Shown here in pieces: positions 16,719 to 60,983 of a stretch of DNA of 64,000 bases (position 1 is its first letter; every line of letters starts with the position of its first letter). Below the pieces are notes generated by a model. It did not search any database and was not told where the DNA came from. It saw nothing but the letters and a program-made list of their open reading frames with translations. The position numbers and the translations under genes were made by a program. The DNA is taken from NCBI GenBank assembly GCA_951406725.2, contig OX597825.1, positions 58,714,001 through 58,778,000 on the forward strand. Direction: 5' to 3'. Origin of the DNA: Octopus vulgaris (lineage: Eukaryota).

Positions 16719-17314
16719 AGTGTGTAAAAATACCTCGAAGCTAGCTTATTGATGCTGGAAACGTTTAAAGTCTTGCTTGCACTTGATTCTTTATTGTAGG
16801 TATTAACATAAACTTTTGTTCTGTCGTCTCTTACTAAAAGCAAAACAGACAGAAAATAACAGCAAGTAGGAGTAAAACAAAATCTAATAAAAGCAGGCAT
16901 CTCTGCGTGGGCCCCCTAACTTGTTGACAAGGAAATCATTTATTACAATAGTTTGGAAGCACACGTTAAATACCGCACGCTCACTTGTGTGTTTGTGTGT
17001 TTCAAGAATAATTTTGTCAGTGCCTTCGAAGTTTCGGTCTGCTAGCCTTCATCGGACTGTGCTACATTTGAGTCCATCTTGGCTTTATATTGTCTCTGGA
17101 AAGTTTATTTTTTTCTGGGATTGGTGAAGCTATATCAAATGGTAATTAGGCTGTAGGGTAATTGCGAAGGCATTGTCACCACTCCTTGTAAAAGAATATT
17201 AAATATGAACTCTTCAATATGTTTTGAGAAACCCTTCAGATTAATGTAATTTAAAAAAATTTAACTCGACAACCAAACAAACAATTATATAATATGGATT
17301 TTAACCTTTTGACC

Positions 17315-18380: not shown

Positions 18381-18438
<58 letters not shown>

Positions 18439-18569
18439 CACTAAATACGACTAGGGGGTTTGGAAACACCTACATTACTAGAAATAAGAGCTAAACTGCT
18501 CTAATGCTGTTGTTAACGCACATTAATTAAAATATATACCATAACAAGGACCATAATCGTCCAAAAAGT

Positions 18570-18650
18570 GCCAATCGAGAATCCTTAATACTGACGCATC
18601 AGTTTCGGTAATTTCCGTTGCCTCATCAGTTAAGACAGCTCGACTTTGGC
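18570..18650 (-). ncRNA. Type I hammerhead ribozyme motif with extended stem I
   Basis: gccaaagtcgag-ctg-tcttaa CTGATGA ggcaac-ggaa-attacc GAAA ctgatgcgtcag TA ttaagg-att-ctcgattggc. Core intact, GUA triplet; stem II has mismatches. Confidence 0.8.
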
Positions 18651-18866
18651 TCTTTCCGAACTCACCTCGCCATTAGTTGTTATATTTCCGTCATCCAAAT
18701 AACAGGATGATTTAGCGATTCGCTAATGTGTATATATAAAATTAATATAAACAGCAGTTTGCAATGTTTCACCAAAAAGGAGAATTACAAATGTCACTAA
18801 ATGCAACTAGAGCATTAGAAAACACCTACATTACTAGAAATAAGAGCGAAACAGCTCCAATGCTGC

Positions 18867-18917
18867 CTTAACCGATGAGGCAACGGAAGTTGCAGAAACT
18901 GACGCGTCAGTATTAAG
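18867..18917 (+). ncRNA. Type I hammerhead ribozyme motif, core variant CCGATGA
   Basis: cttaa CCGATGA ggcaac-ggaa-gttgca GAAA ctgacgcgtcag TA ttaag. Stems I and III are perfect; there is a U4C-type core change. Confidence 0.7.
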
Positions 18918-19200
18918 AATTCTTGATCGGCACTTTTCGGACGACATAGTGTATATATTTTCATTCATGTGCGTTAACTACGGTAGTAGAGCCGTTTAGC
19001 TCTTATTTCTAGCAATGTATGTGTTTTCTAACAAGTTAGCCGCACTTAGTGACATTTGTAATTCTCCTTTTGGGTGAAACATTGCAAACTGCTCTTTATA
19101 TTAATTTTATATATATACATTAGCGAATGCTAAATCACCCTATTATTTGGATGACGGAAGCGTAACTACTAATGGCGAAGCGAGTCCGGAAAGAGCTGAA

Positions 19201-19275
19201 GTCGAGCTGTCTTAACTGATGAGCCAACGGAAATTACCGAAACTGACGCGTCAATATTAAGAATTCTCTATTGGC
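19201..19275 (+). ncRNA. Type I hammerhead ribozyme motif, degenerate stem II
   Basis: gtcgag-ctg-tcttaa CTGATGA gccaac-ggaa-attacc GAAA ctgacgcgtcaa TA ttaaga-att-ctc. Confidence 0.7.
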
Positions 19276-19781
19276 ACTTTTCGGACGATTATGGTCCATA
19301 TTAGTGTATATTTTTTTCATTCATGTGCATTAACTACAGCATTAGAGAGGTTTCGCTCTAATTTCTAGCAATGTAGGTGTTTCTTAACACCCTAGATGCA
19401 TTTAGTGACATTTGTAATTCTCCTTTTCGGTGAAAGACTGCAAACTGCTGTTTATATTAATTATATATATAGATATATAATACATTTCTGCTGTCCACAG
19501 AAATGTATATAACGGACGAAAGGTAACCAGTCAACCACGGTCGAAGTGTTCCTGTCACAATCTGAACCTGATGAATTTTTAAATGAAAGAAAGTATACTA
19601 GTTCAATGAGAATAGACGTTTAATATTTAATTTTCAATATTTCATTTGTTCAATAAGACAATCAATACTTCATTTCATTTCTTTCTTTCTTTCTATATAT
19701 TCTATATTCTCTATCCTATATCAATATTATAAGAATATAAATAAAACATAAAAAACAGAGAGAACTGGAATTCCTTTGAGT

Positions 19782-31364: not shown

Positions 31365-31699
31365 TTAACTAGAGGTGAACTATGCAGCATTGAATGAAGT
31401 ATAGGCGTGTACACTCATATTTAACGCGTTCATATACATTCAGGCATGAGAGACCTTTCATAGAGGAAATAGTCTTAGGAGAAAATTCTCCGCGTAGACA
31501 TCAGTAAAAATATATCTTTAGCTATGAATAACGTTATTGGGCCTACGACACATGCGTTTCTGCGTTGCAATGCCTCATCAGCTATGGCCACCGAATCAGT
31601 TGTTCATAGTCCTCTAAGAACCGTTGTTCTTTTTATAAATAAAGACAGAGAATAGTACATTTGGTGATGTGTGTATGTATACATATATATATATGTATA

Positions 31700-33511: not shown

Positions 33512-34351
33512 AATGAAAAGCTTCTCTTCTTTGTGTTTCCTGCATCGTCGGTGTGGATTCATCAGATAAAAATATGTTCATTGAAAACATATGTTCTTTG
33601 AAAACATTTACACATCGCAAATCTCGGAAGTTGTTTATTAGGTCGAGTGCCGAAAATTTGTGGGCTCTTCACGCCTAAGCTGTTACAGTATGGGTCCCTG
33701 TTTTAGATAGAGAGGACAGGATCTTTGTTTTTTCCGTAATTGAGTCGTTAACCTATTAGGTATGATTGATGGGATTGTCTTGGGTGCTAAATTTGTTGCT
33801 ACTCAGAACTTCCCACCAAACACATTTGTTCATATACGTGTACATGCGTGCGTGTGTGCATGAGTTCGTGCGTGCCTGTTTGTGTATGTGTGTTTGCTGT
33901 TTTGGAGTACGGATTCCGTCGACTGTAATATTCATTTGTACCTAAATTAGAAACAAACATCGTAAAATACCGTGTGGTATTTAGTTTCGGTTCTTTACGC
34001 TGTAAGTTCGAACTCCGCCGAAATCAACTTTGAAGATTAATAAAATAAAGTACCAGTCACGTACTCGGGTGACGGTAACCACTAAACGCCTTCCCTCAGT
34101 TTTGTACTTAAATTATATATAAGTGAAACGGTGCGTTGGCAGAATTGTTAAAGCGCCGAAAAAATGTCTTGCGATATTCGTTCGTCTCTTTATCCTGCCG
34201 TATATCACTTTCATCCATCAGGAATCGTTCAAATAGAGTACTAGTCAAGTTCTGGTGTTGATGGTATCGACTACTCTTCCGTTCAAAACTTCTTGCCTTG
34301 TGCCGGAATTGGAAACAATTATCATCATAATCACCACCACTATCACCATCG

Positions 34352-47869: not shown

Positions 47870-48662
47870 CAAGCCAGGCCGACAATTCTATGAATCCGTC
47901 TTCAGCTTCGGTTACTACTTCAATGCAGGACCGGAATCATTGAAATGCCAGCACTGAATGGTCCATATTCATTTCGGACATCCCCTGGACAATGGCAGCC
48001 TTCAGTCAAGTATTGTGAAGATGTCAGTTAATCTCCCTTTCAACAACGCCGCAAACGTAGTCTATAGGGTTTAAATCTGGCGGGTTTGGAGGCTTTTGGT
48101 GTTGGTTTTATCTTATCGAACAGACTGGCTCATATCCATTCTTGGCTTACGTGGGTTTTGTGAAAAGGTACTGGATCTTGTTGAGATGCATATGGCCTTC
48201 CACTGCATACTTCAACCATCCAGTGCTTAAAAACTGTCTCTAGCACTTCAACGTATCCAGTAACATTAATTCCAAGACTCTGTGACAAGATGTGAGGTAT
48301 TCACCACTTCTAAAACCAGTAGTCTATAGGGTTTAAATCTGGCGGGTTTGGAGGCTTTTGGTGTTGGTTTTATCTTATCGAACAGACTGGCTCATATCCA
48401 TTCTTGGCTTACGTGGGTTTTGTGAAAAGGTACTGGATCTTGTTGAGATGCATATGGCCTTCCACTGCATACTTCAACCATCCAGTGCTTAAAAACTGTC
48501 TCTAGCACTTCAACGTATCCAGTAACATTAATTCCAAGACTCTGTGACAAGATGTGAGGTATTCACCACTTCTAAAACCATTATAGTTATTGGAAATTTT
48601 TAAAATTTTTAGTTACATAGAAATTATTTTAAAAATCTGCCGGTCAAAGTGAAAGTATCCCA
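47870..48662 (-). mobile_element. Tc1/mariner-type transposase remnant containing a 262 bp tandem duplication
   Basis: PPNPPDLNPIDY (SPDLNP-type motif); 48057-48318 is repeated at 48319-48580. Confidence 0.75.
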
Positions 48663-60151: not shown

Positions 60152-60983
60152 TAATCCTTTCCACTGAAGACATAATGCCTGAAATTTTGTGGGGATGAGT
60201 CGATTACATAGATCCCAATGCGTACGTGGTACTTATTTCATCGACCCCGAAAGTATGAAAGGTAAAGTCAACCCCGGCAGAATTTGAACTCAGAACGTAA
60301 GGATGGACAAAAATGCCGCTAAGTATTTCGTCCGGCATTCTAACGATTCTGCCAGCTCGCCGCCTTACATGTATATATAATAATCCTTTCTACTATAGTC
60401 ACAAGGCTTGAAATTTGTGGAGACGACAGAATTTTGGTGGGAGAGGATGAGTCAATTACATCGACCCCAGTGTACAACTGGTACTTATTTTATCGACCCC
60501 GAAAGGATGAAAGATAAATTCGACCTCAGCAGAATTTGAACTCAGACCGTAGCGACGGGCAAAATACCTATTTCTTTACTACCCACAATGGGCTAAACAC
60601 AGAGAGGACAAACAAAGACAGACAAACGAATTAAGTCGATTATATCGACCCCAGTGCGTCACTGGTACTTAATTTATCGACCCCGAAAGGATGAAAGGCA
60701 AAGTCGACCTCGGCGGAACTTGAACTCAGAACGTAGCGGCAGACGAAATACTTATTTCTATTTGTTTACTACCCACAAGGGGCTAAACACAGAGGGGACA
60801 AACAAGGACAGACAAACGGATTAAGTCGATTATATCGACCCCAGTGCGTAACTGGTAATTATATAATCGACCCTGAAAGGCAAAGTCGATCTCGGCGGAA
60901 TTTGAACTCAGAAAGCAATGGCAGACGAAATACGGCTACGCATTTCGCCTGGCGTGCTAACGTTTCTGCCAGCTCGCCGCCTT
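60152..60983 (-). mobile_element. Head-to-tail array of four family B SINE units
   Basis: ATCGACCCCGAAAGGATGAAAGG..GAATTTGAACTCAGAA recurs near 60240, 60492, 60676 and 60866. Confidence 0.9.

What the first reader, a model, noticed from the sequence alone, without database searches (positions are those of the whole stretch)
18438..19470. Tandem ~350 bp repeat delimited by type I hammerhead ribozymes: candidate cephalopod retrozyme / circRNA system
Seen: three copies of cttaa-CTGATGA-stem II(GGAA loop)-GAAA-CTGACGCGTCAG-TA-ttaag at 18584-18634 (-), 18867-18917 (+) and 19211-19261 (+). Stem I extends past a 3x3 internal loop (gtcgag-ctg-tcttaa / ttaagg-att-ctcgat). The two plus-strand cleavage positions (after 18912 and 19256) would release a 344 nt non-coding monomer. 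Known: animal non-LTR retrozymes and newt/schistosome HHR satellites are short tandem units with one type I HHR each, processed to linear and circular RNAs; a stem I internal loop docking on loop 2 is the Schistosoma-type tertiary contact. Inference: this is a family of such elements, probably mobilised by Penelope-like RT. Each copy has lesions (stem II mismatches, CCGATGA, AUA triplet), but the reconstructed consensus ggcaac-GGAA-gttgcc folds properly.
Basis: partly seen in the sequence, partly recalled or inferred. Interest (0 to 1): 0.88.

Follow-up and report, generated by a model that had tools for sequence, protein, structure and literature searches.

The report
Decayed retrozyme with Penelope-type insertion marks
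This is one worn, probably dead copy of an old, gene-less 356-base repeat that carries a hammerhead RNA motif predicted to cut itself, and whose copies bear the insertion marks of Penelope-type jumping genes, which likely copied it; it is a new member of a known kind (animal retrozymes), and neither cutting nor RNA circles were shown.

Summary
The three type I hammerhead motifs are at the stated places. The locus is not a plain tandem array but one two-armed insertion: an inverted arm (18435-18865, 1.21 units) joined 5'-to-5' to a direct arm (18862-19471, 1.74 units). It belongs to a dispersed, non-coding family with a 356-nt unit (344 nt here is a 12-nt loss), about 10% diverged from consensus, with no young copy found. 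Sister subfamilies keep the hammerhead through compensatory changes. Copies have two preferred 3' ends about 60 nt apart, ragged 5' ends, TA/TG-microsatellite flanks and outward-facing arms, mostly one with and one without the tail (15 of 18). A young autonomous Penelope-like family in the same genome does the same (8 of 8). No ORF-bearing parent was found. Copies read through the cut site, so the template was uncut multimer or a re-ligated circle; these were not told apart. All three hammerheads here are damaged. Verdict: new member of the known animal non-LTR retrozymes, likely moved by Penelope-like enzymes; this copy is probably a fossil.

The parts
18435..18865 (-). Inverted arm: 1.21 units, 5'-truncated at unit position 80, 3' end at the short end E1 (unit position 154, counted from the cut site); 91% to family consensus
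18862..19471 (+). Direct arm: 1.74 units, 5'-truncated at unit position 306 (inside stem I of hammerhead 2), 3' end at the long end E2 (unit position 214); 90% to consensus
18862..18865 (.). 5'-to-5' junction of the two arms, 4-nt overlap
18574..18644 (-). Hammerhead 1 (type I): core and GUA intact, one C-A mismatch in stem II, palindrome of helix III imperfect; the best preserved of the three; predicted cut between 18589 and 18588
18862..18927 (+). Hammerhead 2: core U4 changed to C, base pair at foot of stem II broken, distal stem I lost at the inversion junction; predicted inactive
18898..18911 (.). Perfect 14-nt palindrome forming helix III (family consensus state)
   Evidence: sequence
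18913..19256 (+). Cut-to-cut monomer, 344 nt (family 356 nt; 11 nt lost near 18946 and 1 nt near 19128)
19201..19271 (+). Hammerhead 3: core intact, AUA triplet, two stem II mismatches, broken first pair of helix III; predicted inactive
19412..19471 (+). About 60-nt 'tail' between the two preferred 3' ends; present at the end of the direct arm, absent from the end of the inverted arm
18396..18434 (.). (TG)n microsatellite abutting the E1 end (likely part of the target)
19472..19482 (.). TA-rich flank abutting the E2 end; no target duplication can be read

Best explanation
The locus is a single, now decayed insertion of a non-coding 356-nt repeat with one type I hammerhead motif per unit, likely copied into a microsatellite by a borrowed Penelope-like reverse transcriptase-endonuclease. 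Shown: unit, family, hammerhead conservation, two preferred 3' ends about 155 and 214 nt after the predicted cut, ragged 5' ends, outward arms, microsatellite flanks. Inferred: the enzyme cuts both strands of a TA-rich target, starts reverse transcription at two internal sites of the RNA (one per target end), runs through the hammerhead junction without stopping, and the two truncated cDNAs are joined 5'-to-5' by short microhomology or fill-in. Inferred: in the ancestral active state multimeric transcripts self-cleaved, possibly as double hammerheads paired through the 14-nt palindrome, to monomers that could be ligated to circles; I put the circle as main template at about 55% and uncut multimer at 45%. 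This copy is a product of the cycle, not a working source.
For: Family: 76 matches among 40 scored of 1675 candidates; 236 exact hits of a 27-mer, 0 control. True repeating unit: 29 pieces cross the tail-to-next-unit junction with the same sequence; 64 of 64 free 5' flanks share nothing but microsatellite. Structure under selection: 86.1% of cells paired, 45 cells with change on both sides against 22.2 shuffled (0/500) and 16-31 for slid controls; consensus circle z -8.1 against 60 shuffles; relative family D is collinear over the whole unit at 61-66% and one copy scores 45.5 bits on Rfam Hammerhead_1. Ends: 23 of 33 hammerhead-picked and 25 of 29 motif-picked copies end in two windows covering 17% of the unit; 36 of 37 opposite-strand neighbours face outward; 15 of 18 fully defined pairs are short+long end, 3 short+short, 0 long+long; microsatellite within 30 nt of 65 of 106 such ends against 13% background. 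In two further runs 20 and 25 contigs leave the unit at 18731 (= E2) into TA runs. Control: a young autonomous RT+GIY-YIG family has 20 tailed and 17 tail-less ends on (TA)n and 8 of 8 double-ended loci outward with one of each. Literature: tail and inverted 5'-truncated copy are Penelope marks (PMC8557442, PMC3846280, passages); the tail is the stretch between two internal RT starts (PMC11167929, parts 1-2 of 4). Read-through: 5' ends within 20 nt of the cut 7 observed, 7.0 expected; 23 of 38 arms pass it by more than 25 nt.
Against: No autonomous partner with a homologous end was found in 71 Penelope-like loci; the resemblance to two young families is no better than shuffles (122-298 of 300). 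The two end windows were drawn after seeing the maps; 10 of 33 and 4 of 29 ends fall outside; 15 of 33 5' ends of the hammerhead-picked set also fall in those windows; 18 of 36 outward pairs have an arm ending elsewhere. The tail (about 60 nt) is longer than the published 30-40 bp. Covariation rests on about three changes between subfamilies; pairs with a double change are 15 against 12.1 shuffled (58/500), helix III has none, and 10 of 117 pairs of the A circle are broken in the B consensus against 12 kept through change. The consensus hammerhead fold (-19.0) is not the lowest-energy fold (-21.6). Arms of one insertion share only 12-15% of their variants against 6.5% between loci. Longest same-strand run is 2.09 units in 95 loci, short for rolling-circle copying. 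No target duplication could be read.
Confidence: 0.8

Rival explanations
1. The copies are 5'-truncated ends of an old autonomous Penelope-like element whose terminal repeat holds two or more tandem 356-nt units; no independent non-autonomous RNA existed.
For: Same insertion marks are expected; longest run is only 2.09 units, so a unique body further upstream could have been missed; only 95 distinct loci were mapped.
Against: Upstream of every hammerhead lies the previous unit's tail (29 junction pieces); 64 free 5' flanks share no unique sequence; tblastn with a Penelope-like protein hit 1 family locus, about 880 nt from the element with other sequence between, and none of the later sets; A, B and D are collinear around the full unit; the canonical 5-bp stem II differs from the minimal hammerheads described for metazoan Penelope ends (PMC4209133, passages).
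Confidence: 0.1
2. Same element and same enzyme, but the template was always an uncut multimeric read-through transcript; the hammerhead only trimmed RNA or was a passenger, and no circle was made. (A variant inside the best explanation.)
For: In vitro a Penelope-like protein mainly used unprocessed RNA and did not need cleavage (PMC11167929, part 2); arrays are short; the monomer is predicted to prefer an inactive fold.
Against: Internal start plus 5' truncation shortens each daughter, so a lineage lasting through subfamilies 15-39% apart needs a way to regain length, which a circle gives (inference); whole-unit pairing z -8.1 brings both sides of the cut together; circles are shown for mussel, coral and axolotl retrozymes (PMC7229834, parts 2-4 of 6).
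Confidence: 0.35
3. A satellite or fold-back repeat spread by DNA-level events (unequal crossover, inversion, LINE retroposition), with a hammerhead look-alike.
For: Rfam finds nothing at gathering score; copies are 10% decayed.
Against: Dispersed short copies, polarity (fixed 3', ragged 5'), 36 of 37 outward pairs and the short+long end rule; no poly(A) at ends; compensatory changes.
Confidence: 0.04

Closest known systems
Animal non-LTR retrozymes (Cervera and de la Pena 2020, PMC7229834, parts 2-4 of 6 and passages read; Li, Clavereau and Pollet 2026, bioRxiv 10.64898/2026.07.22.740005, parts 1-3 of 5 read)
   Same: Non-coding unit of 150-450 bp (mussel 350-390), GC under 50% (38%), one canonical type I hammerhead per unit, strongly self-paired monomer, co-existence with Penelope-like elements.
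   Different: Short dispersed two-armed insertions rather than long arrays; helix III is a 14-nt perfect palindrome (5 bp plus tetraloop) rather than 1-2 bp; no young or doubly intact copy found; the parts I read argue the Penelope link from co-occurrence and homology, not from tail and inversion marks.
Insertion unit of endonuclease-bearing Penelope-like elements (PMC8557442 and PMC3846280, passages; PMC11167929, parts 1-2 of 4)
   Same: Partial tandem, adjacent inverted 5'-truncated copy, tail at one end only, AT-rich/(TA)n targets, short junction overlap, ends internal to the RNA and downstream of the hammerhead.
   Different: No ORF; tail about 60 nt instead of 30-40; canonical rather than minimal hammerhead; no homologous autonomous partner found.
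Dimeric (double) hammerheads of newt/axolotl satellite repeats (PMC7229834 part 3; PMC4209133 passages)
   Same: Palindromic helix III able to pair between neighbouring units (duplex -25.1 against hairpin -2.8 kcal/mol).
   Different: Here helix III could also close as a 5-bp hairpin; what is predicted to disfavour the monomer is a competing helix between the core and the 3' half of the palindrome.

Membership tests
Animal non-LTR retrozyme | Canonical type I hammerhead in each unit (core, GAAA, NUH, stems I-III) | tested here: met
   Met by the family consensus and by 9 of 88 hammerhead pieces under a strict stem test; the three window copies are damaged; Rfam gathering score not reached.
Animal non-LTR retrozyme | Short (150-450 bp), low-GC, non-coding unit in head-to-tail repeats | tested here: met
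   356 nt, GC 38%, longest ATG frame 15 aa on the hammerhead strand and 62 aa on the other; 43 of 95 loci hold at least one unit, 1 of 95 at least two.
Animal non-LTR retrozyme | Dispersed multi-copy family without LTR-type body or ORF | tested here: met
   PBS/PPT not searched.
Animal non-LTR retrozyme | Highly self-paired monomer | tested here: met
   Consensus circle z -8.1; the window's own monomer only z -1.6.
Animal non-LTR retrozyme | 'Active' by Li et al.: two consecutive units with complete hammerheads | tested here: not met
   0 of 5 same-strand hammerhead pairs, the window's included, pass (my own stem test, not their pipeline).
Animal non-LTR retrozyme | Self-cleavage and monomeric linear/circular RNA in vivo | not testable with these tools
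   Needs bench work or raw reads.
Penelope-type insertion | Two 3' ends (tail at one end), 5' truncation, adjacent inverted copy | tested here: met
   with control family
Penelope-type insertion | AT-rich or microsatellite target | tested here: met
   65 of 106 ends against 13% background
Penelope-type insertion | Target-site duplication (variable in this class) | tested here: inconclusive
   Flanks of 15 composites are mostly microsatellite; none readable by eye
Autonomous Penelope-like element | RT plus GIY-YIG open frame linked to the repeat | tested here: not met
Non-autonomous derivative of a named Penelope family | End sequence homologous to an autonomous family | tested here: inconclusive
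   None in 71 loci from a few families, out of 6136 first-look candidates

The most novel reading that the evidence does not exclude
The scars show a retrozyme lineage (A, B, D; up to 39% apart, collinear) being copied by Penelope-like enzymes from an RNA circle at two fixed internal starts, one per target end, and its hammerhead is a built-in switch: off as a monomer (core paired with the 3' half of a 14-nt palindrome) and on as a double hammerhead in multimers, which would explain how the circle avoids cutting itself.
Probability: 0.3. Interest if true: 0.62.

Novelty: new member of a known kind. Interest (0 to 1): 0.33.

Why it matters
The published link between animal retrozymes and Penelope-like enzymes, in the parts I read, rests on co-occurrence and end homology. 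Here the link is written in the insertions themselves (two internal starts, tail at one end, outward arms), with an autonomous family in the same genome as control, and it names two start sites that an existing in vitro assay could test. It also extends retrozymes to what is probably a cephalopod; my five answered paper searches listed no report of that. The weight is modest: the class is known, this family looks extinct, and unchecked notes of this scan describe younger families in the same genome that are better test objects.

Tried and rejected
Rfam scan: none at gathering score; one weak hammerhead hit. RNA evidence: no RNA holder listed; two runs guessed to be RNA gave 179 and 90 short contigs of mixed copies, none spanning the stretch, and part of it uncovered; this says nothing for or against expression. 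A second laying, to see whether the insertion is shared by other organisms, did not complete. Autonomous partner: not found; the look-alike stretch after the hammerhead-like motif of two young Penelope families is at shuffle level; the Penelope fragment in L039 and the family-C piece beside the Penelope copy in L110/L129 read as separate insertions. A pile-up of 5' ends at the cut site: not seen (the pile at positions 21-31 is likely B copies losing alignment to the A consensus). Shared variants as proof of one template molecule: weak. Junction microhomology: 19 of 36 junctions overlap by 1-12 nt (mean 3.9; blunt simulation 1.45), but 15 have gaps and 2 overlap by over 30 nt, so suggestive only. 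Target duplications: unreadable. The hammerhead energies had an off-by-one template and the census a faulty pattern; both were redone. A genome-wide count with my own RNA model could not be run, so copy numbers are lower bounds. Supplements of the papers were not opened (bioRxiv ones are closed); species tables there may list a cephalopod retrozyme.

Full report
Observation. The three hammerhead motifs and the 344-nt spacing are as described. Rfam gives nothing at gathering score and one weak hammerhead hit, but an exact core pattern has 13 hits in the genome against 0 for the reversed control. Self-comparison shows that 18435-19411 is one large imperfect palindrome (81%). Against a family consensus the locus resolves into an inverted arm, 18435-18865 (unit positions 80 to 154, 1.21 units), and a direct arm, 18862-19471 (positions 306 to 214, 1.74 units), joined 5'-to-5' with a 4-nt overlap. 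Positions count from the predicted cut.

Family. The genome (2.8 Gb, 227 contigs) gave 76 matches among 40 scored of 1675 candidates, at 81-86% for full-length ones; a 27-mer upstream of the ends has 236 exact hits, 0 control, which suggests thousands of mostly short copies (inference). The unit is 356 nt (29 junction-spanning pieces), GC 38%, non-coding. 51 pieces lie 4.7-14.5% from consensus (mean 10%) and the closest pair is 90% identical; no young copy appeared. Loose ends of contigs led to sister subfamily B (85% to A), and the best Rfam Hammerhead_1 hit of the genome (45.5 bits) to an older family D, collinear around the whole unit at 61-66%.

Ribozyme. The A consensus has an intact core, GUA triplet, a 6-bp stem I with 3x3 loop continued by long helices, a 5-bp stem II with a 6-nt loop, and a helix III that is a perfect 14-nt palindrome. 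On 38 aligned copies (23 A-type, 15 B-type, chosen from 88) 86.1% of cells pair and 45 cells change on both sides against 22.2 shuffled; these come mainly from two stem I pairs and one stem II pair that differ between subfamilies, so about three events; the count of pairs with double change (15 against 12.1, 58/500) is not exceptional and helix III has none. In B the palindrome's centre differs; the majority of 11 copies stays palindromic but not in the pile-up. The consensus circle folds at z -8.1, the window's monomer at -1.6. The hammerhead fold of the consensus (-19.0 kcal/mol) is beaten by a fold in which the core pairs with the 3' half of the palindrome (-21.6); masking the palindrome restores stems I and II, and two palindromes pair at -25.1. 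This suggests a double-hammerhead switch, as known for palindromic helix III (PMC4209133, passages; PMC7229834 part 3), but it is a prediction that ignores tertiary contacts. The window's copies score -11.4, -2.5 and +3.9. 46 of 88 hammerhead pieces keep the core letters, 9 of 88 pass a strict stem test, and 0 of 5 same-strand pairs have both passing.

Insertion marks. 3' ends cluster at two places, near 155 and near 214. In 33 loci picked only by the hammerhead 23 end in these windows, in 29 picked by a motif upstream of both 25 do; the windows cover 17% of the unit but were drawn after seeing the maps, and 15 of 33 5' ends of the first set (1 of 29 of the second) also fall in them. Among 95 distinct loci (duplicates of the same place dropped), 36 of 37 adjacent opposite-strand pairs face outward; in 18 both arms reach a defined end, 15 short+long, 3 short+short, none long+long; the other 18 have an arm ending elsewhere. 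Microsatellite follows 65 of 106 defined ends against 13% of distant flanks. These are the marks described for Penelope-like insertions (PMC8557442, PMC3846280, passages), and the tail equals the stretch between two internal reverse-transcription starts in the one in vitro study (PMC11167929, parts 1-2 of 4). The genome holds young autonomous elements: a 781-aa frame with RT, a CxxxxCxxC linker and GIY-YIG (the linker marks Neptune/Nematis in PMC8557442) and a second family at 99% identity with 20 tailed and 17 tail-less ends on (TA)n and 8 of 8 double-ended loci outward with one of each. That is the same rule. Neither is homologous to the unit, so the actual partner is unknown.

Not a truncated parent, as far as tested. 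Upstream of the hammerhead lies the previous unit's tail; 64 free 5' flanks share only microsatellite; a Penelope-like protein hits 1 family locus, unlinked. The longest run is 2.09 units, so a body further upstream is not fully excluded.

Template. A cut linear monomer could give copies of at most 214 nt ending at the cut. Instead 5' ends near the cut are at expectation (7 against 7.0) and 23 of 38 arms pass it. The template therefore had an intact junction: uncut multimer or re-ligated circle. For the circle: length must be regained each generation (inference), the monomer is strongly self-paired, and circles are shown in other retrozymes (PMC7229834, parts 2-4). Against: short arrays, weak sharing of variants within insertions (12-15% against 6.5%), and uncut RNA was the main substrate in vitro (PMC11167929). 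I leave it near even.

Comparison and verdict. It works like, and at family level meets the sequence criteria of, an animal non-LTR retrozyme; it fails the 'active' criterion of the 2026 preprint, and cleavage and circles are untested. Paper searches listed no cephalopod retrozyme; PMC7229834 has no occurrence of octopus or cephalopod in its main text and PMC13282606 none of ribozyme or hammerhead; supplements were not seen. Unchecked notes of this scan report younger families with the same marks in this genome; I saw them after my own tests and count them as no support. New member of a known kind, old family, dead copy; interest 0.33.

Noticed in passing
window 17000-17065 (-): Another, unrelated and degenerate type I hammerhead-like motif (core with C for U4, triplet GGC).
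   Followed up: no
window 31530-31590 (-): A further hammerhead-like motif with intact core letters and a GUC triplet, not of this family; a weaker one near 33520-33570 (-).
   Followed up: no
L119-L128 (e.g. L127:1939-4284 +) and L161-L190: Two young autonomous Penelope-like families (one with intact 781-aa frames), each with two 3' ends 37-38 nt apart on (TA)n; both have TTGATAA where the hammerhead core would be (a U3/A8 variant is recalled, not tested).
   Followed up: partly
L191:1500-1547 (-); L197-L216: Older relative family D, unit about 335 nt, with a short helix III and 4-bp stem II hammerhead; a motif around unit positions 97-112 and a hairpin just after the long end are kept across A, B and D and may be cis-signals.
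   Followed up: partly
L129:4472-4700 (-): Piece of another relative (family C) with a different hammerhead-like motif, beside a Penelope-like copy, followed by a GAA-type microsatellite.
   Followed up: partly
L100:2936-3041 (-); L192, L193, L196: Other hammerhead-bearing repeat families, one with a long stem II insertion.
   Followed up: no
window 48057-48580 and 60450-60933: An exact 262-nt tandem duplication (recent, or an assembly artefact) and a 190-nt repeat in 2.6 tandem copies.
   Followed up: no
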